Position numbers and translations under genes: made by a program. Positions 4,963 through 19,473 of a stretch of 38,650 bases of DNA are shown piece after piece. This stretch comes from an uncultured Gammaproteobacteria bacterium (GTDB taxonomy: Bacteria > Patescibacteriota > Microgenomatia > PFEM01 > CAYPPS01), in NCBI GenBank assembly GCA_964412685.1, contig CAYPPS010000004.1, forward strand, positions 1 through 38,650, read 5' to 3'. The first letter of the stretch is position 1, and every line of letters starts with the position of its first letter. Under the pieces are notes generated by a model. The model searched no databases and had not been told where the DNA came from. It was given only the letters and a program-made list of their open reading frames with translations.

Positions 4963-5012
4963 ATAATCCAGGCTAAATTGTGCTAGAATTGGCCTACCGA
5001 ATGGCCCTTGTG

Positions 5013-5074: not shown

Positions 5075-5091
5075 TGTCTTAAGAGGTGTAA

Positions 5092-5990: not shown

Positions 5991-5991
5991 A

Positions 5992-6675
5992 TTATTTGAA
6001 TAATTCTTTTGAATAACTCTCCAAATATTTAGTGCTTTCTTCCAGGTATTTAACGATATTTTTGCTATCAAGCTTGTGTATTTCTTTTGGCAAAGTATTT
6101 ATATCAAACATAAGGGCTATTTTTTTGGGATCTACATCACCATCCTGCTTTTTGTCAGGGTTTATGCGAAACCAAATATTAGAAGTTTTTTCATTAATTA
6201 CGTCTTTTCTCAAGAGCCCAAAATTAATATCCTTCCAACTTTTTCCTTTTTTAAAATCTCCAAAGTATTTTGTTGATATAAATTCTACTGAGTCATTAAC
6301 TGTGGATTTTAGGTTAAAAACATATCCTATCCTATGAGCCACTAAAGGACTGACCTTATAAAGGGTATCTAGAAGAGATTTATAAATCTTAATTACTTCA
6401 TTAGAAGAATTTGTAAACTTATCATTCGCCTTAGGATTGATAAAGAAATCAATCTTGTTTAATGAAATATTCAAGCTTGCTTGGTTGGTTTTGTTTCGAA
6501 GTATGATTCTTGGTATTTCTGCAGGCGCATCATTTGGAATTGGTAGAACTATTGATTCCCCATCAAAAAGATCCCCCGTTCCTTCTTTCATTTTTTGCGC
6601 AAGAGCCAGCTTATCGGATAAATCAATCCCAGGTGAAAACAATGCAACCTGAATGTTTGTTATTTGGAAATTCAT
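5992..6675 (-). CDS. Hypothetical protein, first gene of the PIN cassette
   Basis: 227-aa intact ORF with a promoter-like -10 upstream. No motif was recognised. Confidence 0.55.
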   Translation of the reverse strand: MNFQITNIQVALFSPGIDLSDKLALAQKMKEGTGDLFDGESIVLPIPNDAPAEIPRIILRNKTNQASLNISLNKIDFFINPKANDKFTNSSNEVIKIYKSLLDTLYKVSPLVAHRIGYVFNLKSTVNDSVEFISTKYFGDFKKGKSWKDINFGLLRKDVINEKTSNIWFRINPDKKQDGDVDPKKIALMFDINTLPKEIHKLDSKNIVKYLEESTKYLESYSKELFK

Positions 6676-6686
6676 AAGTATACTGT

Positions 6687-6692
6687 ATTATA
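6687..6692 (-). promoter_or_regulatory. -10 box (TATAAT) of the PIN cassette
   Basis: Minus strand reads cctgtTATAATacagtatacttATG. The -10 ends 11 nt before the ATG at 6675. Confidence 0.45.
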
Positions 6693-6763
6693 ACAGGTCT
6701 CATCTTTCTAGTCGAAAGGTTCGAACCCCGTTACCGGTATGTTTCACTTCCAGCCTAACGTCT

Positions 6764-6808
6764 AAAAAACAATTAACCTGGCTCGTACTAGGTTAATTGT
6801 TGATTTTT
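6764..6808 (-). terminator. Bidirectional hairpin terminator downstream of tRNA-Thr copy 2
   Basis: Perfect 12-bp stem AACAATTAACCT / AGGTTAATTGTT (6768-6801) with a 10-nt loop. An A-run lies on one side and a T-run on the other. Confidence 0.65.
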
Positions 6809-6848
6809 AGGCTAACTTTGAAGATTTTTGGAAATCATTCCCTTTATG

Positions 6849-6920
6849 AGCCGAAGGTGGGAGTCGAACCCACGACCGATGGTTTACGATACCATTGCTC
6901 TACCACTGAGCTACCTCGGC
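6849..6920 (-). tRNA. tRNA-Thr (anticodon CGU), copy 2
   Basis: Identical in sequence to 3636-3707. The adjacent 5' leader is similar but diverged. Confidence 0.9.
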
Positions 6921-7098
6921 AAATCAGAGCTGGTCACCGTACTTGGCTCGAACCTAAGACGGCTTATTCCCGATAAGCTAATTTTACAACTTGAGGCACT
7001 AAAAAGCCATTTAGGAATCCAAAGTTTTGTTAAATCTTATATTAAAAAACCTCCAGAAACCGCAACTAAAAAAGAGTAGAAGTTCAGTTAATTGCGGA

Positions 7099-7209
7099 GT
7101 GAAGGTATCCTCCTACGCTAAAGCTTTGGCGAAACAAGTCTTACTTTTAGAGAACTGATGGCACATTAGTGATCCATCCCTGTCTGCGCAGGCAGGTTAG
7201 CCACAGGGA
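7099..7209 (+). repeat. Copy B of the conserved hairpin element (candidate structured RNA)
   Basis: Same blocks as copy A plus two insertions (7107-7137 and 7178-7196). Hairpin: GAT-GG-CAC-ATTA-GTG-ATC at 7157-7174. The outer pair differs from copy A in a compensatory way. Confidence 0.55.
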
Positions 7210-7259
7210 CCGCCTTTCAGGGTTATATGAAAAAGAAGCGGATTTGGATTGGTTTTTAG

Positions 7260-7288
7260 TTGACAGTGATATTTCTGATGTCTATACT
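7260..7288 (+). promoter_or_regulatory. Sigma70-type promoter of the defence island (-35 TTGACA, 17 bp, -10 TATACT)
   Basis: TTGACA at 7260-7265 and TATACT at 7283-7288, 19 nt upstream of the ATG at 7308. Confidence 0.65.
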
Positions 7289-7307
7289 CATGACAGGATA
7301 ATTAACT

Positions 7308-7703
7308 ATGTCTAAAATAGCGATCAGTCAAGCGGCCAAAATACTAGGAGTAAGTAAAAAAACTCTCATGCGTTGGGATGAGCCAGGTTTATTCCCAGCC
7401 CAGCGAGAGCCTGTTAGTAACGTGCGTGTTTACGACAAAGAAGGGGTTGAAAAATTAGCTAAATGGTTCGAGTTGCGAAAGAAACACTTAAATCATTTAA
7501 GAAAACTTAAACCAATCAAGGATGAATGCCAGCGCTTTGTATCAACAAGACCGCTTGATCCTCATAATCCCCCCAAAGGGCACAATCTACCAGATATGAA
7601 AAAAGCGTTTGACAAAATGAAGCAATGGCAGCGTGATCTAAGTGAACTACAAAAGAAATATATAGAATTTACAGAGGATTACTATAAAAAACTGAAAAAA
7701 TAA
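7308..7703 (+). CDS. MerR/excisionase-type HTH DNA-binding protein
   Basis: ISQAAKILGVSKKTLMRWDEPGLFPAQREPVSNVRVYDKEGVEKL matches the MerR-superfamily HTH. Confidence 0.7.
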   Translation: MSKIAISQAAKILGVSKKTLMRWDEPGLFPAQREPVSNVRVYDKEGVEKLAKWFELRKKHLNHLRKLKPIKDECQRFVSTRPLDPHNPPKGHNLPDMKKAFDKMKQWQRDLSELQKKYIEFTEDYYKKLKK

Positions 7704-7716
7704 GAATTAAGCTACT

Positions 7717-8775
7717 ATGACAAAAAAACAACCAGTAACTACAGTTAAAGGTCTCGAAATCGATACCTTTAGGCGTGAGTCAGACTTTCTACTTTACACC
7801 ACTCCCGATGGCAAAGTGAGAGTAGAGATCTTTATTAAAGATGAAAACATTTGGTTAACCCAAGAAAAGATAGCTCAGCTTTTTGGAGTGCAAAGGCCAG
7901 CGGTCACGAAGCATCTACAAAATATATTTGAAGGTGGGGAGTTACAGGAAAATTCAGTTAGTTCCATTTTGGAACATACTGCCAGTGATGGCAAAACTTA
8001 TCAAACTAAGTTTTATAACCTGGACGCCATCATTTCTGTCGGTTATCGAGTTAATTCAGCACAAGCTACCCACTTTCGTATTTGGGCAACGGAGCGGTTG
8101 AAAGAGTACATCATCAAAGGTTTCACGATGGATGATGAGCGACTTAAGGACCCACAGCGTATTTTTGGCAAAGACTACTTCAGAGAATTACTGGAGAGAA
8201 TTCGCTCGATTCGTGCCAGTGAGCGCAGAATTTACCAGCAGATTACAGATATTTTTGCCGAGTGTAGTATTGACTACGACTCCCAATCCCAAACCACCAA
8301 AGACTTCTTTGCTACCGTTCAGAATAAATTCCACCATGCTATCACTGGGCATACAGCTGCTGAGATCATTGATGAACGAGTCGATCGCGAACAACCAAAC
8401 ATGGGGCTTGCCACTTGGAAACAAGCACCGGCCGGCAGGATTTTATCTACTGATGTAACTGTCGCCAAGAACTATTTACCTGAAAAACAAATTAAAAAGC
8501 TTGAGAGAACTGTGACGGGATTTTTTGATTACATCGAAAACCTGATTGAGAACAGGCAGGCCTTTACCATGGAAGAGTTTGCCGAAAGTGTCAACAAATT
8601 TTTAACCTTCAATGAATATAGGATCTTGGACGGTAAGGGAAAGATTTCCAAAAAGAGTGCTGATAAAAAGGCGTTGGCTGAATACAAGGAGTTTAATAAG
8701 ACTCAGCCGATTGAGTCTGACTTTGACCGGATGGTGAAAAAGTTAATAAAAGGCGAGAAAAAAAGAAAAAAGTAA
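7717..8775 (+). CDS. rhuM: RhuM-family protein
   Basis: Long collinear match to the RhuM consensus: ...VWLTQEKIAQLFGVQRPAVTKHLQNIFEGGEL..., FYNLDAIISVGYRVNS..ATHFRIWATERLKEYIIKGFTMDDERLK, and HTAAEII. Confidence 0.85.
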   Translation: MTKKQPVTTVKGLEIDTFRRESDFLLYTTPDGKVRVEIFIKDENIWLTQEKIAQLFGVQRPAVTKHLQNIFEGGELQENSVSSILEHTASDGKTYQTKFYNLDAIISVGYRVNSAQATHFRIWATERLKEYIIKGFTMDDERLKDPQRIFGKDYFRELLERIRSIRASERRIYQQITDIFAECSIDYDSQSQTTKDFFATVQNKFHHAITGHTAAEIIDERVDREQPNMGLATWKQAPAGRILSTDVTVAKNYLPEKQIKKLERTVTGFFDYIENLIENRQAFTMEEFAESVNKFLTFNEYRILDGKGKISKKSADKKALAEYKEFNKTQPIESDFDRMVKKLIKGEKKRKK

Positions 8776-8804
8776 TTCCACCGATTTTGATGGAAATAAT
8801 ATAA

Positions 8805-11800
8805 ATGACAATGACAAACGATATTTTACAAAACTATATCCAAGGGATCTCTTCAAAATTTGCCCACGAAGAAACCAGCGAGATGGGATATCGGACTGAC
8901 TTTGAGCTGTTGCTTAAAGGTATTTTTGAGGCAATTAATGTTTCCCGCTTTGATCATGATGCTCGAACAAAACAAGGCAATAAGCCTGATTTTGTAGTTT
9001 TAAAAAATGATATTCCTATTCTTTACATCGAAACAAAGGACATTGGAATTTCCTTAGATAAAATCGAAAAGTCTGAGCAAATGTCTCGGTATTTTGGCTA
9101 TGCCAACTTGGTGCTCACTGATTATGTCGAGTTTCGTTTCTATCGTAACGGTTTGCCTTATGGAGAACCGATCAAGATAGCAGAGTACAACAAGAATAGT
9201 CGGACAATTTCAGCTTTCCCCAATAACTTCGAATACCTTGCAAAAACACTTGTGGACTTCACTCAGTCCCATAAAGAGCCGATTAAATCAGGCAAGCATC
9301 TATCAAAGATCATGGGAGGAAAGGCTCAACGTATCCGCGATAATGTTCGTCAGTTCCTAACCGTCGAATCGGAAAAAGAATCAGAGCTTTTTCGTGTATA
9401 TGAAACCATAAAAAAGCTTTTAGTGCACGATCTTAATAAAGAGACATTCGCCGATATGTATGCCCAAACTCTTGTTTATGGTTTGTTTGTAGCCCGTTTT
9501 TACGATGAAAGTCCTGCAGATTTCTCCAGACAAGAAGCTCGCGATCTTATTCCCAAATCAAACCCACTACTGAGACATTTTTTTGATCATATCGTGGGGC
9601 CTAATTTTGATAAAAGACTTGAATATATTGTGAACGAGTTATGTGAGGTCTTTTCTCATGCCGATGTTGAGAAGTTGATGAAGGAGTATTTCCAAGAAGA
9701 TTTATTTGGGAACGAGCAAAGAGGACCAGATCCAGTTATTCATTTTTATGAAGACTTTTTGAAAGAGTATGACCCTGATTTGAGGAAAAAAATGGGGGCA
9801 TATTACACTCCACTGTCGGTGGTAATGTTTATTGCTCGCAGCGTGGATAGTTTACTTAAAAATGAATTTAAATTAAGCGGCGGGTTGACTGATACCACTA
9901 AGACAGAAAACGATTTACATCGTGTGCAAATTCTTGATCCGGCGGTCGGCACGGGTACTTTTATTAGTGCTGTAATCAGAATTATTTATGCCCAGTTGCT
10001 TAAGTCTGGCCAAAAAGGTCGTTGGCATAAATATGTCCACAATGATTTACTACCCAGAATCCATGGTTTTGAGCTAATGATGGCCCCCTATACTATTGCT
10101 CACTTAAAGCTGGTGATGGCTTTTAAAGAAACAGGCTTCAAGTATTTCAATCGACGTTTGGGAATTTATCTTACCAACTCTCTAGAAGAAACCGCCAAGC
10201 AAGAAGAATTGTTTTCAGCTTTTGGCTTGGCAGAAAGCATTGCTGAAGAATCAAAAGAAGCGGCTGTTATCAAAAACAAAACCCCAATTATGGTGGTGAT
10301 TGGTAATCCTCCATATTCTGGTGAATCAAGTAATGCACAGTATAGTGGCAACAATGTTTACAAGATTGAGCCTGGTGGGGGTAAGTTACAGGAAAGAAAT
10401 TCCAAGTGGCTCAACGATGATTATGTAAAGTTCATTCGCTTTGCAGAAGGTATGGTGGAAAAAACCGAGGAGGGCATTGTAGCCATGATTACTGCCCATG
10501 GTTACATAGATAATCCTACTTTCAGAGGAATGCGTTGGCATCTGATGAAAACTTTTGATGAGATTTATGTTTTGGATTTGCACGGCAATGCTAATAAAAA
10601 AGAAAAGGCTCTTGATGGTGGTGAGGACAAAAATGTGTTCAATATCAAAACTGGAGTGGCTATTTTCTTTGGGGTTAAAAAGAAGGACAGCAAAACAGAC
10701 TTGGCTCAAGTTTATGTGGCAGATCTGCATGGCAAGAGACAGGCTAAATTTAAATATCTGAATGACAATCTAATTAATTCAGTCAAGTGGGCTTCTCTAA
10801 AACCATCAGGACCAAATTATGTATGGGTAAAGCGAGATGAAAAGAAGTTGTCAGAGTACAACAAAGGCTTTTCCGTTAACGATCTATTCCCAGTTTCAAG
10901 CGTGGGGGTGGTTACTTCTAGAGATGCCTTTGTGATTGACACAAGTAAAAAGGTTCTCGCCGAGAGAATTCAGGAGTTCTTGCGTTGCCAAACTTCACAA
11001 GAAGCTAAGGCAAAATTTAATTTAAGAGAAAACAAAAAATGGAAGGTGGCCAATGCTCTAAAACACGAGTTTGATGAGAAAAATATTGTTCCTATAAGCT
11101 ATCGCCCGTTTGATACCAGATTTATCTACTATCACGATGACTTTATTGAAAGATCAAGAAAAGAAGTAATGAAGAATTTTTTAGTTGGAGAAAATGTTGG
11201 ATTAGTAACTGCCAGATCAAACAAAAACCCAGAGGTGGATCACTTCTTTATATCGGGATCTTTGACCGAAGCCAAATTGGGAGAGTCTAGTACTCAATCA
11301 GCCGTGTTTCCTTTGTATTTACATAGGGAAAACGGAAATAAAGATAACAATTTTAATGTAGAAATTTTCGAACGAGTTGAAAAGATTGTAGGAAATATAT
11401 CTGCAGATCAACTACTTGATTATATTTATGCATTTTTATATTCGTCAGCATATCGTGATAGATACCAAGAATTCTTAAAAATCAGCTTCCCAAGAGTACC
11501 TTACCCTAAAGACAAAAAGTCATTTACAACGTTGGCAAAATTAGGCAGTGAGCTGCGTCAACTGCATTTATTTGAATCTCCAAAAATGAATGATTTTGTA
11601 ACCACCTATCCTGAGGCTGGTTCAGATATGGTGGATAATCCAATCTATAAGGGTGACAGAGTTTATATCAACGACGTGCAGTATTTTGGCGATGTTCCTA
11701 AGGTGGCTTGGAATTTCCACATCGGAGGTTATCAGCCAGCTCAAAAATGGCTCAAGGATCGTAGAGGTGCTACGCTTGCAAATTCAGATATTGAGCACTA

Positions 11801-11873
11801 TCAGAAAATGATTATTGCCCTGGTTGAGACAGAGAGGATTATGAAAGAAATAGATAAGACAATAAAGTTATGA
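8805..11873 (+). CDS. Single-polypeptide restriction-modification enzyme (Type IIG/IIL, MmeI/YeeA-like): PD-ExK nuclease + gamma-class N6-adenine methyltransferase + C-terminal specificity domain
   Basis: PD-ExK: KPDFVV (D62, 8988-8990) and YIETK (E76/K78, 9030-9038). AdoMet motif: ILDPAVGTGTF. Catalytic NPPY at 10305-10316. C-terminal segment: HIGGYQPAQKWLKDRRG. Confidence 0.8.
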   Translation: MTMTNDILQNYIQGISSKFAHEETSEMGYRTDFELLLKGIFEAINVSRFDHDARTKQGNKPDFVVLKNDIPILYIETKDIGISLDKIEKSEQMSRYFGYANLVLTDYVEFRFYRNGLPYGEPIKIAEYNKNSRTISAFPNNFEYLAKTLVDFTQSHKEPIKSGKHLSKIMGGKAQRIRDNVRQFLTVESEKESELFRVYETIKKLLVHDLNKETFADMYAQTLVYGLFVARFYDESPADFSRQEARDLIPKSNPLLRHFFDHIVGPNFDKRLEYIVNELCEVFSHADVEKLMKEYFQEDLFGNEQRGPDPVIHFYEDFLKEYDPDLRKKMGAYYTPLSVVMFIARSVDSLLKNEFKLSGGLTDTTKTENDLHRVQILDPAVGTGTFISAVIRIIYAQLLKSGQKGRWHKYVHNDLLPRIHGFELMMAPYTIAHLKLVMAFKETGFKYFNRRLGIYLTNSLEETAKQEELFSAFGLAESIAEESKEAAVIKNKTPIMVVIGNPPYSGESSNAQYSGNNVYKIEPGGGKLQERNSKWLNDDYVKFIRFAEGMVEKTEEGIVAMITAHGYIDNPTFRGMRWHLMKTFDEIYVLDLHGNANKKEKALDGGEDKNVFNIKTGVAIFFGVKKKDSKTDLAQVYVADLHGKRQAKFKYLNDNLINSVKWASLKPSGPNYVWVKRDEKKLSEYNKGFSVNDLFPVSSVGVVTSRDAFVIDTSKKVLAERIQEFLRCQTSQEAKAKFNLRENKKWKVANALKHEFDEKNIVPISYRPFDTRFIYYHDDFIERSRKEVMKNFLVGENVGLVTARSNKNPEVDHFFISGSLTEAKLGESSTQSAVFPLYLHRENGNKDNNFNVEIFERVEKIVGNISADQLLDYIYAFLYSSAYRDRYQEFLKISFPRVPYPKDKKSFTTLAKLGSELRQLHLFESPKMNDFVTTYPEAGSDMVDNPIYKGDRVYINDVQYFGDVPKVAWNFHIGGYQPAQKWLKDRRGATLANSDIEHYQKMIIALVETERIMKEIDKTIKL

Positions 11874-12682
11874 CAAAAAATATGAAACAAGCTACCAGGG
11901 ATTCTACTGATGGCGGATATTATGCCTTGAAGGGTTTTACGTATCAATTCGACAAATCCTTAATTGAAGTTCTCACCAACTCGGACAAAGACATTGAAGT
12001 TGAACAAACGCAAGATATTGGTTTGTCCAAATACTATATTCAAGTAAAGTACAGAGAGGGCCAAACGTATTCGCCATCGAAGATTCATAAAGCGATGGCC
12101 CAGCTTCTTGAAAACTTCATTGCGGACAAACAGAGTTCATTTGAATTGTACTGCTATTTTAATAATAAGGTTCCTGAAAGCAAGTCGTTTACTTTAGCTG
12201 AATTGGATAATGTACTTTCTACCGAAAAAAATAAATATACACAAAGTGATAAGCGAGATTTTATTAACAATTTTACACTGATTTTTTCAGAGAACTTTGA
12301 AAAGCAGTTCAAATCACTAATCAACAGGATTAAGAGTGATTTTGACTTGAAAAATGAAGAACAGGCAATAGAATATCATGCCCGTTTCAGAGCTTATTTA
12401 TTGGAAATAGTAACTCAGAAAAACAAAAAGAAGAGGTTAATCAACTTTAATAAATTAAAAACAGTCGTTAATCAAAACGAAAAAATCATATTCGACTTTG
12501 CTTATTGTAAGTTATTGACAGAAAGAAAGTATTTTTCATACCTGAAAAAAGAGTATTTCACATTTAAAAAACTAAATATTGCCAACAAAGAACGCCTTTT
12601 TGTTATTGAGGTAGATAATTTTGTGGGTGACGGTGATATTTTACAGATCATTACAAATATTCAAAATAAGTATTTTAAATAG
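11870..12682 (+). CDS. DUF4297 (Cap4-like PD-(D/E)xK nuclease) protein, N-terminal 270 codons ending at an in-frame TAG
   Basis: DGGYYALKGFTYQFDKSL start motif, then DIEVEQTQDI ... YIQVKY. The ATGA overlaps the RM gene's stop. Confidence 0.7.
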   Translation: MTKNMKQATRDSTDGGYYALKGFTYQFDKSLIEVLTNSDKDIEVEQTQDIGLSKYYIQVKYREGQTYSPSKIHKAMAQLLENFIADKQSSFELYCYFNNKVPESKSFTLAELDNVLSTEKNKYTQSDKRDFINNFTLIFSENFEKQFKSLINRIKSDFDLKNEEQAIEYHARFRAYLLEIVTQKNKKKRLINFNKLKTVVNQNEKIIFDFAYCKLLTERKYFSYLKKEYFTFKKLNIANKERLFVIEVDNFVGDGDILQIITNIQNKYFK

Positions 12683-13030
12683 CACTCATCTCCCGCCCCC
12701 TACATTTGTTTATCAGGGAACCTTACTAAGGAAAGAACAATAGCCATTAAACAAAAGCTTTGGGATAAAAGTATGTTCTTTGTCGATGGAACTCATTTTG
12801 ATGGTGACCGATTTAGAATCGGTGATCTGATTGCAAGTACGCATGACAACAATTCAAATATAAAATATAAACTTGTTTCTATAGAAAACATTTACCCTTT
12901 ACTAACAAAACAGATTAATGAAGTTTATGTTTTTACAATAAACGGTGATTATAGCTTGAAAACAAGCGCAAATAAATTAAATAAATTTTATGTTAATCGC
13001 ACTAAAAATATTACTAAAATAATTGAATAA
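12683..13030 (+). pseudogene. Same-frame continuation of the DUF4297 gene beyond the TAG (includes track ORF 12773..13030)
   Basis: There is no further stop between 12683 and 13027 in the frame of 11870. Joined length would be about 386 codons. Confidence 0.55.
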
Positions 13031-13037
13031 GATATTT

Positions 13038-13868
13038 ATGTCAGACACAATAGTAAAAGCAGAGGTAATTGCAGTCTCCCCAAATAAGGTTAAGGTTGCT
13101 GTGAATGATATCGAAGCATTCAAACTTGATGACGAAGTATTGACAGTTGGCTCTTATCTTAAGGTTTTTGACCACAAGGATTGTTCAATTATCGCAATAA
13201 TAGAAAATTTCTCAATTGAGATTCAAGAACCCGATGAGGATGGAAAAAGAAAAAAAGTTTATATCATTGAAGCGGTGCCTCTTGGTTTTCTTGATGCAGA
13301 AGATGTGTTTATTAGGGGTGGAAATAATATTGCTATTCCTCCAAAGACAGTTGAGCCTGCAAAAAAAGAGGATATACAAAAAATTTACGATGACATAGGA
13401 GAACAGAGTAGATTTTGCTTTTCTAAGTTAGCGCTAGACACATCGATAAAAGTGCCTGTTGATGGCAATAGGTTTTTCAATAAGCATATAGCTATAGTTG
13501 GTTCTACCGGATCTGGTAAATCACATTCTCTTGCAAAAATTTTGCAGGAGGCCACCACTTCTAAGGATGATGGATACTCTGGGTTAAACAACTCTCACAT
13601 CGTCATATTTGATATTCATTCCGAGTATAAGTCGGCGTTTCCAGGTAAGCAGTCAAATGTTCTCGATGTTAGCAACTTACTATTACCATATTGGTTACTT
13701 AATTCAGAAGAAATTGAAGACCTACTAATAGAAAGCAATGAGGAACAATCACATAATCAGATTGCAACTTTAAAAAAGCTGTTATTGAAAGTAAACAAAA
13801 ACATTTTGTTGGTAGCAAAGAAGAAAAGGAGAGAGTTCATTATGACTCACCAGTGTTCTTTGATATAG
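13038..13868 (+). CDS. HerA-type (DUF87) ATPase, N-terminal part in the 0 frame
   Basis: N-terminal barrel-like segment. Walker A: VGSTGSGKSH (13500-13523). The likely start is the ATG at 13038 (the track ORF starts at the TTG at 13023). The 0 frame ends at 13868, after the A-run at 13772-13777. Confidence 0.75.
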   Translation: MSDTIVKAEVIAVSPNKVKVAVNDIEAFKLDDEVLTVGSYLKVFDHKDCSIIAIIENFSIEIQEPDEDGKRKKVYIIEAVPLGFLDAEDVFIRGGNNIAIPPKTVEPAKKEDIQKIYDDIGEQSRFCFSKLALDTSIKVPVDGNRFFNKHIAIVGSTGSGKSHSLAKILQEATTSKDDGYSGLNNSHIVIFDIHSEYKSAFPGKQSNVLDVSNLLLPYWLLNSEEIEDLLIESNEEQSHNQIATLKKLLLKVNKNILLVAKKKRREFIMTHQCSLI

Positions 13869-14686
13869 TCGAAGTGCTCCAGAGTGTAAAAGGAAAAAAT
13901 GAGGAGATGGTGCCAGGTGCAAGGGTTGGTACAGAAAAACAAGGCTCCTTGTTTGGCAAGCTAGATAATTTTATTACTAGATTAGAAAATAAAATAAATG
14001 ATAAGCGCCTTAAGTTTTTGTTAGGCGAACAAGTAAGAAAAATATCCCCTGAAAATGTATTAAGGCAATTTATTTCTTATAAAAAAGATAATGAAGCCAA
14101 TATTACTATCATTGACCTAAGTGGAGTACCTTTTGAGGTTTTGAGTATAACAGTGTCACTGATTTCTAGAATTTTATTTGATTATGCTTATATCTACAAG
14201 AAATCAAATCCTCAGGTTGTGAATGAGACACCTTTGCTTATTGTTTACGAGGAAGCACACAAATATGTACCAAAGACTGGTCTGACACGATTTAATGCTT
14301 CTAAGTATGCAATAGAGCGAATTGCAAAAGAGGGGCGAAAGTATGGCGTCACTGCAGTTATTGTTAGTCAGCGCCCTTCAGAAATTTCTGAAACCATATT
14401 CTCACAGTGCAGTAATTTTATCTCCATGAGACTGACTAATCCAGAAGATCAAAATTATGTTAAGCGCTTATTGCCCGATACTCTTGGCCCATTAACTGAG
14501 ACGCTTTCCATGCTTCAGGCGGGAGAAGCGTTGCTAATCGGAGATTCTGTAGTAATGCCATCATTAGTTTCTATTGATCATTGTGATCCTAGTCCATCAT
14601 CTAACGATATAAGGTATTTGGAGGAATGGAAAAAACAATGGAAGAATGTAGATTTTGATCCGATTATAAAAAAATGGCAAGAATAA
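13778..14686 (+). CDS. HerA-type ATPase, C-terminal part in the -1 frame (track ORF 13853..14686)
   Basis: The -1 frame is open from 13778 (AVIESKQKHFVGSKEEKERVHYDSPVFFD...). Walker B: LLIVYEEAHKYV. Also RKYGVTAVIVSQRPSEISETIFSQCSNFISMRLTN. Confidence 0.75.
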   Translation, partial: AVIESKQKHFVGSKEEKERVHYDSPVFFDIVEVLQSVKGKNEEMVPGARVGTEKQGSLFGKLDNFITRLENKINDKRLKFLLGEQVRKISPENVLRQFISYKKDNEANITIIDLSGVPFEVLSITVSLISRILFDYAYIYKKSNPQVVNETPLLIVYEEAHKYVPKTGLTRFNASKYAIERIAKEGRKYGVTAVIVSQRPSEISETIFSQCSNFISMRLTNPEDQNYVKRLLPDTLGPLTETLSMLQAGEALLIGDSVVMPSLVSIDHCDPSPSSNDIRYLEEWKKQWKNVDFDPIIKKWQE

Positions 14687-14698
14687 TACTTAAAAATT

Positions 14699-16066
14699 AT
14701 GAACAACAAAACTAAATGTCCAAAATGTGGTGAATTATTTGAGCCTGGAGATGCATACAAGCATGAGGTAGAAGAGACTGTACGCAAAGAGTCACAGGTT
14801 AAACACCAGCAGGAGTTAGAAGAAGCAAAAAAACAGATAGCAGAGACTACTAAGTCTGAGGTTGAGAAGAAAGCAAAAGTTGAACTCGAATCTGCTGTAG
14901 AAGCTACAAAAAAAGAAGCTGAAATCAATGCCAGGCAAGCTCTCAAGCTCCAGGAAGATCTTGATGAGCAAATTAAGCTCTCCGCCGAACTAAAGGCAGA
15001 AAAAAGCAAACTGCGTGAGACACACGAAAAAGAATTAGAAGAAACTAGGAAACAAATATCTGAGAAGGCCAAGTCGGAGGCTCAAAAGAGTGTGGCTAAG
15101 CAGCTCAAGGACAAAGAAGAGCAGGTCTCAGAGTATAAAAAACGAGCGGAGCAAGCCGAAGAACAAGAGCTTCAAATTAGGAAAGAAAAGCTCGAGCTAG
15201 AAGAATCTAAGCGTAAGTTTGAGTTAGAAAAACAACGTCAGCTTGATGAGGAACGAGACAAAATTCGCAACAAAGCTCTCAAGGAGGCACAAGAAACGCA
15301 TGAACTTAAAGATAAAGAAAAGGAGATGCTTATTGAGAATCTCAAGAAATCATTGGCAGATGCCCAGAGAAAAGCCCAGCAAGGCTCACAACAAGCTCAG
15401 GGTGAGGTAATGGAGCTTGAATTAGAAGATCTGCTTAAACGAGAGTTTCCCATGGATAAAATTGTCGAAGTCAAAAAAGGACAACGTGGTGCAGATGTGG
15501 TGCAAGAGGTGATTGACAAAAAAGGGAGAAATTGTGGTGTGATTTTGTGGGAATCAAAAAATGCTAAGTGGCAAAACACATGGGTAGCTACTCTCAAGGA
15601 GAATCAAAGACAAGCAAAAGCACAGATAGCCGTTCTTGTGTCTAACAATACTCCGCCAGAAATCGAAACCTTTGTTTATAAGGAAGGTGTTTGGATAGCA
15701 AACAGAAAAATGGCTTTGCCTTTGGCATTGGCGTTAAGGTTCGACTTGGTTCGAGTTACCTTTGAAAAGATGGCTAACGTCAATAAATCTGAAAAAGCGG
15801 AGATTTTATATCAGTACATCACCAGTACTGAATTTAAGCACCGGATTGAAGCAATAGCTGAAACATTTACAGATATGCAAAGCACGATTGAGACTGAAAA
15901 ACGTTGGTTTACTTCAAAATGGGCAAAACAGGAGAAGCAAATTAGGCGTGTGGTTGATAACACCATTGGTATGAGGTCTGATCTGGAAGGATTGGTTGGT
16001 AATGCGTTACCTTCTATTGACTATCTAGAACTGCCAGATTCTATAGAGGAAGATAAAAAGGATTAA
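14699..16066 (+). CDS. DUF2130-family protein: Zn-ribbon, long E/K coiled coil, C-terminal PD-(D/E)xK-like domain
   Basis: CPKCGE at the N-terminus, about 200 aa of heptad-like E/K/Q sequence, then GADVVQEV...GVILWESKN. Confidence 0.65.
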   Translation: MNNKTKCPKCGELFEPGDAYKHEVEETVRKESQVKHQQELEEAKKQIAETTKSEVEKKAKVELESAVEATKKEAEINARQALKLQEDLDEQIKLSAELKAEKSKLRETHEKELEETRKQISEKAKSEAQKSVAKQLKDKEEQVSEYKKRAEQAEEQELQIRKEKLELEESKRKFELEKQRQLDEERDKIRNKALKEAQETHELKDKEKEMLIENLKKSLADAQRKAQQGSQQAQGEVMELELEDLLKREFPMDKIVEVKKGQRGADVVQEVIDKKGRNCGVILWESKNAKWQNTWVATLKENQRQAKAQIAVLVSNNTPPEIETFVYKEGVWIANRKMALPLALALRFDLVRVTFEKMANVNKSEKAEILYQYITSTEFKHRIEAIAETFTDMQSTIETEKRWFTSKWAKQEKQIRRVVDNTIGMRSDLEGLVGNALPSIDYLELPDSIEEDKKD

Positions 16067-16095
16067 CTAAGTTTGTTGACATAGCCCCAACTTTT

Positions 16096-16566
16096 TCAAT
16101 TCAACACCACAATCGCTGCATTCAAAATCGTGGCAAAACTTACCCAGAGAAGATCTGGCACGAGAAGGTAAGCGGCCCATTTTGACAGTGGGTAAAACTT
16201 CTTTATAGTCATTGCAATTAGTGCCCACATTGCCACAATTATGATAAGCCCTAGCAATGGTGCCTTTAATCCAAAGAAAATTGGTGACCAGATGAAATTC
16301 AGCCCCAGTTGAGCGAGAAAATACATTCCGGCAGTCTTCACTTTCTTCTTTTTCCAGCCTTGTTTCCAAATCAGATAAAACGCAACGCCCATTAGGAAAT
16401 ACAAAAGTGTCCAAACTGGTCCAAAGAGCCAGTTGGGAGGAGAGAAGAAAGGCTTGTTGAGAGTAGCGTACCAAGTAGGGATGGCAGAGATAGTAAAAGG
16501 TGTTCCTAGGAACCCCACCAATTCACAACCAACGATGGAAATAATAAGTTTGGGCAAGTTTTTCAT
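16096..16566 (-). CDS. tspO: TspO/MBR tryptophan-rich sensory protein
   Basis: WYATLNKPFFSPPNWLFGPVWTLLYFLMG, five TM helices, Trp-rich. Confidence 0.85.
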   Translation of the reverse strand: MKNLPKLIISIVGCELVGFLGTPFTISAIPTWYATLNKPFFSPPNWLFGPVWTLLYFLMGVAFYLIWKQGWKKKKVKTAGMYFLAQLGLNFIWSPIFFGLKAPLLGLIIIVAMWALIAMTIKKFYPLSKWAAYLLVPDLLWVSFATILNAAIVVLN

Positions 16567-16690
16567 CTGTCTACAGTATGGAGTAAATTCGATAAGAGGG
16601 CAATCAATATTGTAGGAATCGATTCACTTCCTTTTTTTAGCTTGATTTATTGGGGAAATTCGCTCTTTTTTTGATTTCAGTCCGGTTATG

Positions 16691-16761
16691 AGCGGAGTGC
16701 GGGAGTCGAACCCGCCTTTCCACCTTGGGAAGGTGACGTTGAGCCGCTCAACTAACCCCGC
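16691..16761 (-). tRNA. tRNA-Gly (anticodon CCC)
   Basis: Reverse complement: GCGGGGTTAGTTGAGCGGCTCAACGTCACCTTCCCAAGGTGGAAAGGCGGGTTCGACTCCCGCACTCCGCT. Anticodon loop UUCCCAA. Confidence 0.85.
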
Positions 16762-16787
16762 TTTAGACGGCTTATTGTCCTTTTATT

Positions 16788-16796
16788 ATTCTAACA
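16788..16796 (-). promoter_or_regulatory. Extended -10 (TGTTAGAAT) upstream of tRNA-Gly
   Basis: The minus-strand TGTTAGAAT lies 26 nt upstream of the tRNA 5' end. Confidence 0.4.
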
Positions 16797-16819
16797 CTCT
16801 TGCGATAGAGAGAAAGACC

Positions 16820-17437
16820 TTATCGGGGAATAACTAGAGTATTTCCCGGATGAATTAGGCCTGGGTTTTCAAGATCATTCGCTTCTGCAATATCTGACCA
16901 ACGAAAACCGTCATCATAGGCTCTAACGGCAATTCGCCAGAGACTATCGCCTTCAACGATCTGATAGTTTTCATCACTGATATCATTAACTGTTTCTTGA
17001 ATTCCACCTTTCTCGATCTCTTCGCCAGCGAGAGTAATCACTTCAACTTTAGGAATAGTCAATTCTTGACCAATGGCAATCTTGTCGGCACTATTCAAGT
17101 TGTTCGCCTCAGCGATATCAACCCAATTGTAGCCCGAATTGTAGAATTTTTCCGCAATCAACCAAAGATGATCATTCTCTTTAACAGTGTAAACAGTCGG
17201 TAGTCCTTGAGGGACTAATTTACCTTCCTCTTCAATTAAAACCACTTCTTGTTCTTCTTGATTGGTTTCAGTTTCTGTTCCTGATTCAATTTGACCCTCT
17301 TGGTTTAAGGATCGAAAATAATTGAAGATCAAAGCGCCGATAACTACCACAACTACTATTCCCAAGAAAGTGCTGATTTTATTTTCGTTCGCTTTTAATT
17401 TATCAAAAATTCCTTCTTCTTTTCTTTTTTTAGGCAA
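16820..17437 (-). CDS. Membrane-anchored protein with two LysM domains
   Basis: TM helix, then two repeats: YTVKENDHLWLIAEKFY..WVDIAEANNL..IAIGQELTIP and YQIVEGDSLWRIAVRAY..WSDIAEANDL..IHPGNTLVIP. Confidence 0.85.
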   Translation of the reverse strand: MPKKRKEEGIFDKLKANENKISTFLGIVVVVVIGALIFNYFRSLNQEGQIESGTETETNQEEQEVVLIEEEGKLVPQGLPTVYTVKENDHLWLIAEKFYNSGYNWVDIAEANNLNSADKIAIGQELTIPKVEVITLAGEEIEKGGIQETVNDISDENYQIVEGDSLWRIAVRAYDDGFRWSDIAEANDLENPGLIHPGNTLVIPR

Positions 17438-17497
17438 TTAACATTACCTCCTTCCTGGGCAGAAGCTTGTCACGTTTTTCCTTTTAGCAAAACTTCG

Positions 17498-17575
17498 TGG
17501 CGGTCGCGACCGGACTCGAACCGGCGATCTCCACCTTGACAGGGTGGCGTGTTAAACCAACTACACTACGCGACC
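17498..17575 (-). tRNA. tRNA-Asp (anticodon GUC), CCA encoded
   Basis: Reverse complement: GGTCGCGTAGTGTAGTTGGTTTAACACGCCACCCTGTCAAGGTGGAGATCGCCGGTTCGAGTCCGGTCGCGACCGCCA. Confidence 0.9.
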
Positions 17576-17591
17576 TTTTAACTTACGCTTA

Positions 17592-17620
17592 AATATATCA
17601 AATAGCGGTATTTGAGTCAA
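17592..17620 (-). promoter_or_regulatory. Promoter of tRNA-Asp (-35 TTGACT, 17 bp, -10 TATATT)
   Basis: On the minus strand TTGACT is at 17615-17620 and TATATT at 17592-17597, 16 nt before the tRNA 5' end. Confidence 0.55.
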
Positions 17621-17679
17621 TCAGACTATAGGAGAAACATTGCACCTTCGGTAAGGGAGGTTATAATGGACAAAAGGAA

Positions 17680-19473
17680 ATGGCGGTTAAGAATTATTAC
17701 TTCAACAATCAACAAGTTACTCAAATTTTAAAAGAGACGGCGGCGGCACTTGAAGTTAAGGGTGAAAATCGATTCCGGATTAGAGCTTACGAAAGAGCCG
17801 CTACGGCAGTTGAACACGCAACGGTGGAAGTTAAAGATTTGTGGGATGAGGATAAATTAACCACTCTTTCCGGGATTGGCTCCAATATCGCTCAACATTT
17901 AAGCCAACTTTTCGAAAAGGGCCAAGTGAGCCATTTTAAGGAGCTAAAAAAAAACCTTCCTCCGGCAATGTTTAAATTCCTGGAAATTCCGGGAATTGGG
18001 CCCAAAACTGCCTTTAAATTAAGCCAAGAACTAGGGATCAAACGAACAGAGGGAGCAATTGGTAGGCTTAAAAAGGCCATTAAATTAAAAAAGATAAGAA
18101 AGATCGAGGGATTTGGAGAAAAAAGTGAGCAAGAAATCTTGGGAAATTTGAAAAGGAACAAAAAAACAGATTTGAAAAAGAGGATGTTGTTGCCTTACGC
18201 TTGGTTTTTGGCTCAAAAAGTGATTGATTATTTGAAACCAGAAAAGACGGTTTTGCAAATAGAGGCTTTGGGAAGCCTGAGAAGAAAAGTGGCTACCGTA
18301 GGAGATATTGATTTAGCTATTGCTTCCAAAAAATCAACTAAAGTAATAGAAAGACTAAAAAAATATCCGGAAATTGAAAAAATTGTGGTGGCTGGTAAAG
18401 ATACGGCTCGTTTTGTCTTGCGCTCAGGCAAGCAAGTTGATTTAAAAATAGTATCACCGGAGAGCTACGGAGCCTTACTCCAACATTATACTGGCTCAAA
18501 AGAGCACAATATTCATTTAAGAAAAATTGCCCAAAGTAGAGGAATGAGCCTGTCAGAATACGGAATTAAATTTCGAGGAAAGCTTAAACGGTATCGAAAA
18601 GAAGAAGAGTTTTACCGGGCTTTGGAAATGGATTGGATTCCACCAGAATTGAGAGAGGACAAAGGTGAAGTAAAAGCAGCCATGTCCGGAAAACTACCTA
18701 ATTTAGTCGATGAAAACGATATTAAAGGAGATTTACATCTTCATTCCGATTTTGCCATTGAACCGGGGCATGATTTAGGCCAGGCTTCTTTCGAAGAGAT
18801 TTTAAAGAAAGCGAAAGAATTGAATTACCAATATCTAGGTTTTTCTGAGCATAATCCGAGCCTGAGTCGGCATTCTAGCGCTCAGGCGATTGATTTGGTT
18901 AAAAAGAAACGAGAAATGATTGATGAAATAAATTATTCATTAGGAAAAAAGTTATCCATTAAAGTGCTAAATGGCCTTGAGATAGACATAAAAAAGAATG
19001 GAGAATTGGCTTTTCCTGACGAAGGAATGAAACATTTAGACTATGCGATTGCGTCTATTCATACTAATTTTAGTTTAACCAAGAAGGAAATGACCGATCG
19101 GGTTTTAAAAGGTCTTTCTCATCCTAAAGTAAGATTTTTAGCCCATCCGACTACCCGTAAATTAGGAGAACGAGAGGGGATAGAGCTTGATTGGGAACAA
19201 CTTTTTGACTTTTGCAAACAGAATGACAAGTTTTTGGAGATTTCTTCTTGGCCTCAACGATTAGATTTGCCAGATTTTCTTGTTAAGCAGGCTGTGAAAA
19301 GTGGTGTGAAAATGGTGATTAATAGTGATTCTCATGCTTTGTCGCATCTAGAATTGATGTCCTATGGGGTTTCGGTTGCTCGTAGAGGATGGGCGCAAAA
19401 AAGTGATATACTTAACACTCTGGAGTGGTCGGGATTTAAGAAAAAGTTTTTAAAACAAGATGGAACTAGATAA
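17680..19473 (+). CDS. polX: Family X DNA polymerase with C-terminal PHP domain
   Basis: HhH repeats ([18 protein letters not shown]), [17 protein letters not shown] nucleotidyltransferase motif, and a PHP domain (DLHLHSDF ... SEHN ... NSDSH). Confidence 0.9.

What the first reader, a model, noticed from the sequence alone, without database searches (positions are those of the whole stretch)
8805..16066. One coupled operon joins a single-chain RM enzyme to DUF4297-HerA and a DUF2130 protein
Seen: the four reading units are packed head to tail on one strand. ATGA overlaps at 11870-11873. The DUF4297 stop at 13028-13030 is 8 nt before the HerA ATG. There are 12 nt between HerA and DUF2130. I saw no promoter-like or terminator-like gap from 8805 to 16066. 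Established: MmeI/YeeA-like enzymes combine PD-ExK, NPPY methyltransferase and specificity functions in one chain. DUF4297 plus HerA is a reported two-gene anti-phage pair. Inference: expressing a self/non-self methylation module together with an ATPase-nuclease pair and a third PD-(D/E)xK-like protein may form one integrated system rather than three stacked ones. One possibility is methylation-gated activation of the HerA/DUF4297 complex. I do not recognise this four-part architecture as a named system.
Basis: partly seen in the sequence, partly recalled or inferred. Interest (0 to 1): 0.75.

Follow-up and report, generated by a model that had tools for sequence, protein, structure and literature searches.

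The report
Restriction operon with swappable, decayed defence cassette
A candidate-phylum bacterium carries a tightly packed anti-phage operon built around a one-protein restriction-modification enzyme. The operon has a slot that holds different ATP-driven nucleases in related genomes; here the slot holds a DUF4297-HerA pair that is already broken, and the operon ends with DUF2130, an uncharacterised nuclease that keeps company with such systems.

Summary
The gene order, junctions and family assignments are correct, with two omissions. DUF4297 carries an in-frame TAG at 12680-12682. HerA carries a 1-nt deletion at 13772-13778. Both are therefore pseudogenes.

The co-directional cluster starts earlier than reported. 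It begins with a MerR-type HTH gene (7308) and a RhuM gene (7717), behind the best promoter-like site (7260-7288).

The exact four-family set recurs in only one other locus (L039). A looser frame does recur: RM, then one ATPase/nuclease module, then DUF2130. It appears in 5 of 8 loci with a ≥55%-identical RM enzyme and with sequence available downstream of it. The middle slot holds an OLD nuclease, an ABC-type ATPase, a Schlafen/HATPase protein or DUF4297-HerA.

Nucleotide similarity breaks at gene boundaries, which indicates cassette shuffling.

DUF4297-HerA sits directly behind RM systems of six or seven different types in 8-10 of 36 loci. For HerA with other partners the figure is 0 of 27. 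The pair also occurs alone and is known to work alone.

DUF2130 recurs beside RM, OLD and HerA modules across phyla.

Verdict: a modular, layered RM-centred defence operon, not an obligate four-part machine. Methylation gating has no support.

The parts
7260..7288 (+). Best sigma-70-like promoter match of the region (TTGACA-17-TATACT, 11 of 12), just before the first gene of the cluster
   Evidence: This is a consensus match only; the number of matches in the region equals the number in shuffled sequence.
7308..7703 (+). MerR-type HTH protein (131 aa), first gene of the co-directional cluster
   Evidence: Pfam MerR_1 8.2e-09 and MerR 1.8e-08. Short MerR-type HTH genes hold the same position in L105 and L106.
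7717..8775 (+). RhuM-family protein (352 aa; PADLOC candidate PDC-S05) with a weak Bro-N-like N-terminus
   Evidence: Pfam Virulence_RhuM 2.3e-105; PADLOC PDC-S05 4.5e-151. KilA-N or Bro-N proteins hold this slot in L105 and L106. RhuM is also embedded in the RM operons of L087 and L098.
8805..11873 (+). Single-chain Type IIG/IIL restriction-modification enzyme (1022 aa). It has an N-terminal PD-ExK nuclease (D62, E76, K78), a gamma-class N6-adenine methyltransferase (DPAVGTGTF, NPPY at 501-504) and a Type_ISP_C specificity domain. It has no helicase. The gene is intact.
   Evidence: PDB 7lo5 9.1e-53; LlaGI and LlaBIII about 1e-39; motif columns invariant in 17 homologs.
11870..13030 (+). DUF4297 (Cap4-like nuclease partner of HerA), a pseudogene. 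Its start overlaps the RM stop (ATGA).
   Evidence: It is 76% identical to the intact 386-aa L005 copy. The intact sibling allele P0364 differs only at codon 271.
12680..12682 (+). In-frame TAG (AAG Lys in relatives). It cuts off the C-terminal third of DUF4297, the domain that in the solved complex holds the upper-layer DUF4297 subunits together.
   Evidence: Domain role from PMC11291478.
13038..14686 (+). HerA ATPase (anti-phage HerA type 2), a pseudogene. When repaired it gives 549 aa, 92% identical to intact P0121. The Walker A (GSTGSGKS) and Walker B (YEEAH) sequences are present.
13772..13778 (+). Site of the 1-nt deletion (AAAAAAG here, AAAAAGAG in L005). It shifts the HerA frame, which then stops at 13866-13868.
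   Evidence: The exact N-terminal fragment is seen on 4 independent contigs.
14699..16066 (+). DUF2130 protein (455 aa): Zn-ribbon, a helix of about 230 residues, and a PD-(D/E)xK core with invariant D266, E285 and K287. The gene is intact.
   Evidence: Its closest relatives end RM operons in L096 and L097.
6848..6920 (-). tRNA-Thr(CGU), second copy of a duplicated tRNA segment. It marks the left edge of the island.
16096..16566 (-). Convergent TspO/MBR gene; right boundary of the cluster
   Evidence: Pfam TspO_MBR 5.1e-49.

Best explanation
This is a modular, RM-centred defence operon in a Patescibacteria (Microgenomates-group) genome, sitting next to a duplicated tRNA-Thr.

Gene order: MerR-type HTH, RhuM, a single-chain Type IIG/IIL RM enzyme, a slot for an ATP-driven nuclease module, then DUF2130.

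Shown:
- The genes are co-directional with spacers from -4 to 29 nt, and no internal signal stands out above chance.
- The RM enzyme and DUF2130 keep all their catalytic motifs.
- The slot holds DUF4297-HerA, which is inactivated by a shared frameshift in HerA and a newer nonsense codon in DUF4297.
- In relatives the same frame holds OLD nucleases, an ABC-type ATPase or a Schlafen/HATPase protein in the slot.
- Nucleotide similarity stops at gene boundaries, so modules are exchanged as cassettes.

Inferred:
- The RM enzyme methylates the host genome and cuts incoming DNA as the first line of defence.
- The slot module is a second, abortive line. DUF4297-HerA is a promiscuous dsDNA nuclease. 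It acts when restriction fails, or on the DNA ends that restriction creates.
- DUF2130 is an accessory nuclease that works at the same stage.
- The modules are separable rather than one obligate machine.
- The costly DUF4297-HerA module has been lost here, while the RM enzyme and DUF2130 are kept.
For: - Anatomy and family assignments.
- Lesions: (only two differences of consequence against L005 at 83% nt identity). Searches show the HerA fragment on 4 contigs and an intact DUF4297 allele on 6.
- Frame conservation:
  - L105: MerR, KilA-N, RM (85% identical), OLD, DUF2130.
  - L106: MerR, Bro-N, RM (84%), AAA_15/21 ATPase, DUF2130.
  - L107: RM (64%), OLD, DUF2130.
  - L096: RM (55%), SLFN_AlbA_2/HATPase_c_4, DUF2130 (79%).
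  - L097: a different RM, OLD, S subunit, DUF2130 (66%).
  - L110: hsdM, hsdS, ABC/OLD-like ATPase, DUF2130.
  - Sources.
- Cassette breakpoints: the window matches L105 and L106 only over the RM gene, L005 only over 11847-14708, and L096 over DUF2130. L005 and L106 share only the DUF2130 gene, at 95% nt identity.
- RM upstream of DUF4297-HerA: L006, L008, L010, L011, L014, L027, L039, L045, L048. The control group gave 0 of 27.
- Literature: layered RM operons with embedded effectors and RhuM (PMC3710099). DUF4297-HerA is a two-gene abortive system that also degrades host DNA (PMC11291478).
Against:
- Three RM homologs at 57-58% identity on viral contigs, and four on proteobacterial plasmids, stand alone.
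- Close DUF2130 homologs sit alone among housekeeping genes.
- Close DUF4297-HerA pairs sit alone on mobile elements.
- Co-transcription was not shown.
- No function is known for DUF2130 or RhuM.
- The layered-defence roles rest on analogy, not on a test.
Confidence: 0.55

Rival explanations
1. One reading: the four genes form one integrated system, in which the RM enzyme's methylation mark gates the DUF4297-HerA nuclease, and DUF2130 is an obligate third nuclease.
For: - The junctions are tight or overlapping.
- RM and DUF4297-HerA adjacency is enriched.
- DUF2130 lies next to DUF4297-HerA in the window, L005, L033, L039, L131 and L132.
- A second RM + DUF4297 + HerA + DUF2130 locus exists (L039).
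Against: - RM partners of six or seven unrelated types and specificities precede the pair, so a shared methyl mark cannot be what is read.
- The pair works alone in E. coli and cuts host DNA regardless of its methylation (PMC11291478).
- The pair and DUF2130 each occur without RM.
- In this genome the pair is dead while the RM gene and DUF2130 are intact.
Confidence: 0.1
2. Functional coupling through DNA ends. The ATPase-nuclease module and DUF2130 load on the double-strand ends made by restriction and destroy the fragments. This would be a RecBCD-like finishing step, which explains why any RM type can be the partner.
For: - The RM partner type varies but the position is fixed.
- The genes next to DUF4297-HerA are often end-processing nucleases: SbcCD-like pairs in L024, L028, L043, L133-L135 and L138; Metallophos in L027; a Cas4-like PD-(D/E)xK in L008; and DUF2130.
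- From established knowledge: this echoes the archaeal herA-mre11-rad50-nurA operons. The end-resection role of HerA-NurA is described in PMC12977600.
Against: - There is no biochemical evidence.
- The E. coli complex also cuts circular DNA (PMC11291478).
- The pair is effective without an RM system.
- Whether these genomes lack RecBCD or AddAB was not examined.
Confidence: 0.2
3. Plain stacking: unrelated defence genes accumulated at a tRNA-linked hotspot. The adjacency has no functional meaning beyond co-transfer.
For: - The locus sits at a duplicated tRNA-Thr with another small insert (a PIN gene).
- The modules have separate histories with breakpoints at gene boundaries.
- GC content dips over DUF4297 (0.31, against 0.41 over DUF2130).
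- Every module is found alone elsewhere.
Against: - The same order, RM - one ATPase/nuclease module - DUF2130, was rebuilt repeatedly with different RM types, different slot modules and two DUF2130 subfamilies only about 23% identical to each other.
- The spacers in these loci are mostly only a few nucleotides.
- The HerA control group had no RM gene upstream.
Confidence: 0.15

Closest known systems
DUF4297-HerA two-gene anti-phage system (recently called Hailibu; structures 8ziq, 8zir, 8zit)
   Same: The gene order DUF4297 then HerA is the same, with a 7-nt spacer. The N-terminal Cap4-like nuclease motif aligns with 8ziq (D...QxK). The HerA Walker motifs are present. The best family models are the anti-phage DUF4297 and HerA_antiphage_2 models.
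   Different: Both genes are broken here. This copy is embedded between an RM gene and DUF2130, whereas the characterised system is a free-standing pair. The DUF4297 score is below NCBIfam's equivalog cut-off (155.8 against 300).
Single-chain Type IIL/IIG RM enzymes (7lo5, which I recall as DrdV; MmeI family) and Type ISP enzymes LlaGI and LlaBIII
   Same: It has a PD-ExK nuclease, a gamma-class N6A methyltransferase and a C-terminal specificity domain in one chain. It matches 7lo5 at 9.1e-53, and LlaGI and LlaBIII at about 1e-39 over the methyltransferase-TRD part.
   Different: It lacks the helicase motor and coupler of true Type ISP enzymes (compare L027, 1633 aa), although PGAP names relatives 'type ISP'. 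Its target sequence and cleavage geometry are unknown.
PrrC-EcoprrI and other RM operons with embedded second-line effectors, including RhuM-containing RM neighbourhoods (PMC3710099)
   Same: An RM system is the first line, and one or more effector genes sit inside or at the end of the same operon. RhuM is present. The effector differs from locus to locus.
   Different: The effectors here are DNA nucleases with ATPases, not HEPN RNases. No physical or regulatory link between the RM enzyme and the effector is shown. The recurrent terminal DUF2130 gene is not part of any described scheme.
OLD-family and ABC-ATPase nuclease systems (Gabija, PARIS, Septu)
   Same: In relatives the slot holds AAA_15/AAA_21 + OLD-like TOPRIM proteins (L097, L105, L107, L110). 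In L098 it holds an OLD + UvrD pair beside DUF2130.
   Different: The window itself has no OLD gene. Membership of those slot proteins in Gabija, PARIS or Septu was not tested.
Methylation-linked multi-gene systems with HerA-like ATPases (MADS, Dnd/DndH)
   Same: There are weak PADLOC hits: the RM enzyme to mad2 (3.5e-10), HerA to mad8 (2.3e-20) and HerA to DndH (about 1e-8). The idea of a methylation module plus an ATPase is the same.
   Different: Much stronger hits go to Type IIG RM and to the DUF4297-type HerA. None of the other MADS or Dnd genes is present.

Membership tests
DUF4297-HerA (Hailibu) defence system | DUF4297 protein with an N-terminal Cap4-like PD-(D/E)xK nuclease domain plus a C-terminal domain, as one intact ORF of about 380-400 aa | tested here: not met
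   The homology is clear (PADLOC 1e-35; NCBIfam 1.6e-45, 155.8 bits, below the cut-off of 300; 8ziq 1e-10). However, the ORF stops at codon 271 (TAG at 12680-12682).
DUF4297-HerA (Hailibu) defence system | Intact HerA ATPase of about 550 aa with Walker A and B motifs | tested here: not met
A 1-nt deletion at 13772-13778 splits the gene.
DUF4297-HerA (Hailibu) defence system | The two genes are adjacent, DUF4297 first, on the same strand | tested here: met
   11870-13030 is followed by 13038-14686 with a 7-nt spacer.
DUF4297-HerA (Hailibu) defence system | Protects against phage | not testable with these tools
   This needs a plaque assay. With both genes broken, no activity is expected.
Type IIG/IIL single-chain RM enzyme | PD-(D/E)xK nuclease, N6-adenine methyltransferase (motif I, and motif IV NPPY) and a specificity domain in one polypeptide | tested here: met
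   P61-D62 ... E76-T-K78; DPAVGTGTF at 378-386; NPPY at 501-504; Type_ISP_C 9.1e-85. All motif columns are invariant in 17 homologs.
Type IIG/IIL single-chain RM enzyme | No helicase or ATPase motor (this separates it from Type ISP and Type I) | tested here: met
   There are no ResIII, DEAD or Helicase_C hits, and the length is 1022 aa. In contrast, L027 has Mrr_cat_2 + ResIII + ISP_coupler.
Type IIG/IIL single-chain RM enzyme | Site-specific methylation and cleavage | not testable with these tools
   This needs methylome sequencing and a cleavage assay. From my own recollection, not checked here: the Borrelia plasmid homologs (34% identical) include the genes known as BBE02 and BBQ67, reported to restrict transformation.
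DUF2130 (PF09903; PD-(D/E)xK superfamily) | Pfam match above the gathering score, and a conserved D...ExK triad | tested here: met
   193.2 bits against a cut-off of 26.7. D266, E285 and K287 are invariant in 26 sequences. The family is listed as PD-(D/E)xK in PMC3424549. Fold search gave only weak nuclease matches (best E = 0.015).
A single conserved four-component system (RM + DUF4297 + HerA + DUF2130) | The same four families co-occur in conserved order across lineages | tested here: not met
   There is one further case (L039, with two small genes interposed) among about 36 DUF4297-HerA loci. The slot and the RM type vary otherwise.
RM - slot module - DUF2130 operon frame (proposed here) | An RM gene or genes, then one ATPase/nuclease module, then DUF2130, co-directional, mostly with spacers of a few nucleotides (up to about 70 nt) | tested here: met
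   Found in the window, L096, L105, L106 and L107 (5 of 8 loci with a ≥55%-identical RM enzyme and downstream sequence). Also found in L097 and L110 with other RM types.

The most novel reading that the evidence does not exclude
RM - (ATPase/nuclease) - DUF2130 is a real multi-component defence architecture. In it, DUF2130 is a required partner nuclease that cooperates with whichever ATP-driven module fills the slot (OLD, ABC ATPase, DUF4297-HerA or SIR2-HerA). It acts on the products of restriction or on restriction failure. DUF2130 would then be a new, widespread defence gene, and the slot modules would be functionally interchangeable.
Probability: 0.25. Interest if true: 0.75.

Novelty: new variant of a known kind. 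Interest (0 to 1): 0.55.

Why it matters
RM operons with embedded second-line effectors are an established idea. The recurrent frame found here appears in none of the papers I could search. It consists of a single-chain RM enzyme, one exchangeable ATP-driven nuclease module and a terminal DUF2130 gene. DUF2130 has no assigned function and no PADLOC model.

If the linkage holds in a genome-wide survey, three things follow:
- DUF2130 becomes a candidate defence gene.
- The survey gives natural swap experiments, showing which ATPase-nuclease modules are treated as equivalent.
- It gives a concrete, testable case for how abortive DNA-degrading systems such as DUF4297-HerA are layered behind restriction.

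The stepwise decay seen here (HerA first, then DUF4297) also shows the cost of keeping such a promiscuous nuclease in a small candidate-phylum genome.

Tried and rejected
- Pfam gave no hit for the DUF4297 protein at E <= 0.01. The assignment rests on PADLOC, NCBIfam and PDB 8ziq.
- phmmer of DUF2130 against PDB sequences found nothing. Foldseek of its AlphaFold model (pLDDT 76.6) gave only weak PD-(D/E)xK nuclease matches with E >= 0.015. No closer functional analogue could be named. A resemblance to RmuC (coiled coil plus nuclease) is my recollection only and was not tested.
- The literature holds nothing on DUF2130 beyond a 2012 census. The DUF4297-HerA papers I opened and searched (PMC11291478 and two bioRxiv preprints) describe no RM linkage.
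- I considered that the two lesions were assembly errors. I rejected this for HerA, because the identical fragment is on 4 contigs from different sources. The DUF4297 nonsense codon is on 2 contigs, with an intact allele on 6.
- I considered MADS or Dnd membership because of weak mad2, mad8 and DndH hits. I rejected it: far stronger specific hits exist and no other genes of those systems are present.
- I considered DUF2130 to be a resident housekeeping gene that the island merely landed beside. Solo homologs and its genome-like GC content support that. Its recurrence at the same operon position in two divergent subfamilies weakens it.
- Internal promoters and terminators are not above chance.

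Full report
**Observation**

The window comes from a low-GC (about 0.38) candidate-phylum bacterium. The nearest named homologs of its proteins come from Pacebacteria, Shapirobacteria, Woesebacteria and 'Patescibacteria group' assemblies.

On the + strand the ORF list and translations give the following:
- 8805-11873: 1022 aa.
- 11870-13030: read through one in-frame stop.
- 13038-14686: read across one frameshift.
- 14699-16066: 455 aa.

There is an ATGA overlap at 11870-11873. There is a 12-nt spacer before DUF2130.

Promoter-like and terminator-like consensus matches in 6500-17800 are no more frequent than in shuffled sequence (28 vs 28.2; 10 vs 9.1). None of the internal ones stands out.

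**Family assignments**

- The 1022-aa protein is a Type IIG enzyme. PADLOC REase_MTase_IIG scores 1.4e-290. Pfam finds HSDR_N-like, N6_Mtase/Eco57I/MmeI_Mtase and Type_ISP_C domains. It has P61-D62...E76-x-K78, DPAVGTGTF and NPPY motifs. These columns are invariant in 17 homologs. It has no helicase domain. Among solved structures it is closest to 7lo5 (9.1e-53) and to the methyltransferase-TRD halves of LlaGI and LlaBIII.
- The second protein has no Pfam hit. It matches PADLOC DUF4297 (1e-35), NCBIfam DUF4297_antiphage (1.6e-45, below the equivalog cut-off) and the solved DUF4297 of the DUF4297-HerA complex (8ziq, 1e-10). The nuclease motif aligns.
- The third is the DUF4297-type HerA (HerA_antiphage_2, 2.9e-241; 802 bits, just under the model's curated cut-off of 850).
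- The fourth is DUF2130 (6.5e-57).

Two of the four genes are pseudogenes. Against the 83%-identical intact cassette in L005, the window differs by exactly one indel and one nonsense codon. The indel is a 1-nt deletion in the run at 13772-13778. The nonsense codon is AAG to TAG at 12680.

An exact-sequence look-up shows the following:
- The truncated HerA N-fragment is on four contigs from different sources, including a 45,434-nt one.
- A DUF4297 allele identical to the window's except for Lys271 is on six contigs.
- The truncated 270-aa form is on two contigs.

The HerA frameshift is therefore real and shared. The DUF4297 nonsense codon is newer. This order is what one expects if DUF4297 is useless once HerA is gone.

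Other decayed copies exist elsewhere: DUF4297 is split in L007 and HerA is split in L039.

**The cluster starts earlier**

A MerR-type HTH gene (7308-7703) and a RhuM gene (7717-8775; PADLOC PDC-S05) precede the RM gene, with 13-nt and 29-nt spacers. The best promoter-like match of the region (7260-7288, 11 of 12) lies just upstream.

The island lies between a second copy of tRNA-Thr(CGU) (6848-6920) and a convergent TspO gene.

**Comparative evidence 1: DUF4297-HerA contexts**

Among close relatives of HerA (63-92% identity), the pair lies directly behind RM systems of different kinds in four loci:
- L006/L007: a helicase-type R subunit plus a methyltransferase-S fusion.
- L008: a Type I hsdM-hsdS-hsdR system.
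- L010: an AlwI system with two methyltransferases.
- L011: a set of N6_N4 methyltransferases.

In five other cases there is no co-directional RM:
- L005: a partial upstream gene with an HNH C-terminus, not identified as an RM gene.
- L009.
- L094 and L095: on elements with serine recombinases.
- P0136: RM systems are present, but on the other strand.

In the wider metagenome sample, RM enzymes directly precede the pair in these loci:
- L014/L015/L017 and L039: Eco57I-type R-M plus M.
- L027: a full 1633-aa Type ISP enzyme.
- L048: the pair lies inside a Type I operon.
- L045: a partial methyltransferase.

Other loci have DruA, RloB/AAA_21, SbcCD-like pairs, integrases or housekeeping genes upstream.

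Overall, 8-10 of 36 informative loci have a co-directional RM gene immediately upstream. The gap is usually 2-6 nt.

In the same scan, none of 27 loci whose HerA has a different partner has an RM gene immediately upstream. I annotated the ten co-directional upstream genes and found none to be an RM component. Fisher p is 0.003-0.008. The lineages are not independent, and some control loci may not be defence loci.

Seven plasmid lineages of cultured Proteobacteria show no annotated RM system next to the pair.

**Comparative evidence 2: DUF2130 contexts**

The closest homologs of the window protein fall into two groups.

Solitary, among housekeeping genes:
- L001-L003 (68% identical).
- L004 (83% identical).

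At the end of RM operons:
- L096 (79% identical): a homolog of the window RM enzyme (55% identical), then a SLFN_AlbA_2/HATPase_c_4 protein, then DUF2130.
- L097 (66% identical): an HSDR_N_2/N6_Mtase enzyme, an OLD nuclease, an S subunit, a 95-aa gene, then DUF2130.

On plasmids and viral contigs DUF2130 sits as follows:
- L098: it heads an OLD + UvrD pair followed by a methyltransferase-RhuM-helicase set.
- L100/L103: it heads a Type I system.
- L108: it follows a Dam-AlwI system.
- L110: it ends hsdM-hsdS-ABC/OLD-like ATPase.

So 6 of 13 contexts retrieved through DUF2130 itself hold a co-directional RM.

DUF2130 is also next to DUF4297-HerA where no RM was detected:
- L033: DUF2130 is followed by Mrr_cat and TIR genes.
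- L131 (Ralstonia) and L132 (Paraburkholderia): DUF2130 is upstream of the pair.

In L087 it is next to SIR2-HerA, inside a methyltransferase-RhuM-Res operon.

**Comparative evidence 3: contexts of the RM enzyme itself**

Three chromosomal relatives show the same frame:
- L105 (85% identical): MerR, KilA-N, RM, OLD, DUF2130.
- L106 (84%): MerR, Bro-N, RM, AAA_15/21 ATPase, DUF2130.
- L107 (64%): RM, OLD, DUF2130.

With the window and L096, that makes 5 of 8 loci that have a ≥55%-identical enzyme and downstream sequence. The three exceptions are viral contigs (L115, L116, L119). More distant plasmid homologs stand alone.

DUF2130 comes in two subfamilies that share only about 23% identity. Type A is in the window, L096, L097 and L107. 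Type B is in L005, L105, L106 and L039. Both occupy the same terminal slot.

**Mosaic structure**

Nucleotide comparisons show the following:
- The window matches L105 and L106 (78-79%) only across the RM gene (8795-11873).
- It matches L005 (83%) only across 11847-14708, the DUF4297-HerA cassette.
- It matches L096 (83%) across DUF2130.
- L005 and L106 share the DUF2130 gene at 95% nt (97% aa), a 67-nt stretch downstream of it, and nothing else.

Modules are therefore exchanged with breakpoints at gene boundaries.

GC content also dips over DUF4297 (0.31), against 0.39-0.41 over the RM gene and DUF2130.

**Interpretation**

The data do not fit an obligate four-part machine:
- The exact set recurs once (L039).
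- The slot and the RM type vary.
- Each part lives alone elsewhere.
- The DUF4297-HerA pair defends E. coli by itself. It does so by degrading both phage and host DNA in an abortive manner (PMC11291478).
- In this genome the pair is dead while its neighbours are intact.

The data do not fit meaningless stacking either. The same order has been rebuilt with different RM types, different slot modules and two DUF2130 subfamilies, mostly with spacers of a few nucleotides.

The best reading is a modular, layered RM-centred operon of the kind described for PrrC-EcoprrI and for RhuM-containing RM neighbourhoods (PMC3710099). It has an exchangeable ATP-driven nuclease as a second line and DUF2130 as a recurrent accessory nuclease.

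A more specific idea remains open. The slot module and DUF2130 may act on the DNA ends that restriction makes. The frequent company of end-processing nucleases around DUF4297-HerA suggests this: SbcCD-like pairs, Metallophos and Cas4-like proteins. So does the parallel with archaeal herA-mre11-rad50-nurA operons, which is established knowledge (the role of HerA-NurA is in PMC12977600). This idea is untested.

It is hard to square with RM partners of many specificities.

**DUF2130 itself**

- The alignment shows invariant C7 and C10, and D266, E285 and K287.
- The AlphaFold model (pLDDT 76.6) has a small ribbon, one helix spanning residues 16-249 and an alpha/beta core.
- Foldseek finds only weak matches to restriction-type nucleases: BstEII, Bax1, a SPARDA nuclease and BamHI, with best E = 0.015.
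- The family is listed as PD-(D/E)xK with unknown function in the 2012 census (PMC3424549).
- It has no PADLOC model.

**Novelty and limits**

All the families are known, and RM operons with embedded effectors are a known kind. What is new is the recurrent RM - slot - DUF2130 frame, the preference of this DUF4297-HerA clade for the position behind RM genes, and DUF2130 as a defence-associated gene. None of these appears in the papers I could search.

The limits are these:
- The samples are small.
- Lineages are non-independent.
- There is no expression or functional data.
- ORF calls in the fetched loci are my own.

Noticed in passing
window 3635-3743 and 6848-6956; 5021-5061 and 7138-7178: tRNA-Thr(CGU) plus 36 nt of flank is duplicated (109 nt, 93% identical). 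A 41-nt repeat (83%) lies beyond each copy. Between the copies are a UPF0020-type methyltransferase gene (3926-4945, - strand), a PIN-domain gene (5092-5574, - strand) and two ORFs without Pfam hits. This looks like serial insertion at a tRNA-Thr site; the defence operon starts just after copy 2.
   Followed up: partly
L024, L028, L043, L133/L134, L135, L138: SbcCD-like gene pairs flank DUF4297-HerA in at least six lineages. Each pair is a Metallophos 'DNA repair exonuclease' plus an SMC/AAA ATPase. This resembles the archaeal herA-mre11-rad50-nurA operon arrangement.
   Followed up: no
L131 (Ralstonia solanacearum CP085044.1) 3289-7659; L132 (Paraburkholderia sabiae NZ_CP125297.1) 3286-7659: Cultured Betaproteobacteria carry DUF2130-DUF4297-HerA as a three-gene run with a 35-nt spacer and no annotated RM system nearby. 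These strains could be used to test the role of DUF2130.
   Followed up: no
L005 3303-4571 vs L106 12547-13816: Two contigs share a DUF2130 (type B) gene at 95% nt identity and 97% aa identity. The genes on both sides are unrelated: DUF4297-HerA and DUF5677 on one contig, an AAA_15 ATPase and a hydrolase on the other. This is a recent single-gene cassette exchange.
   Followed up: partly
L007 8870-9992; L039 HerA region: Other RM-linked copies are also broken: DUF4297 is split into 221 + 150 aa in L007, and HerA into 182 + 336 aa in L039. Together with the window, this hints that RM-linked DUF4297-HerA decays often. Assembly error was not excluded for these two.
   Followed up: no
L087 3784-16808; L098 6980-15254: Two unrelated loci share the layout DUF2130 - two-gene module - DNA methyltransferase - RhuM - Res-type helicase. 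The module is SIR2-HerA in L087 and OLD + UvrD in L098. This is a Type III-like counterpart of the frame seen in the window.
   Followed up: partly
L105 4259-7917; L106 6889-7918; window 7308-8775: A short MerR-type HTH gene is paired with a RhuM, KilA-N or Bro-N protein directly upstream of the RM gene in three loci. L105 has two such pairs. The pair may be a regulator or antirepressor-like module that belongs to the operon frame.
   Followed up: no
plasmids of Borrelia and Borreliella (e.g. NC_000956.1 40460-43627): The RM enzyme family includes the linear-plasmid genes of Lyme and relapsing-fever spirochaetes (about 34% identical over the full length), which PGAP annotates as 'type ISP' although they have no helicase.
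   Followed up: no
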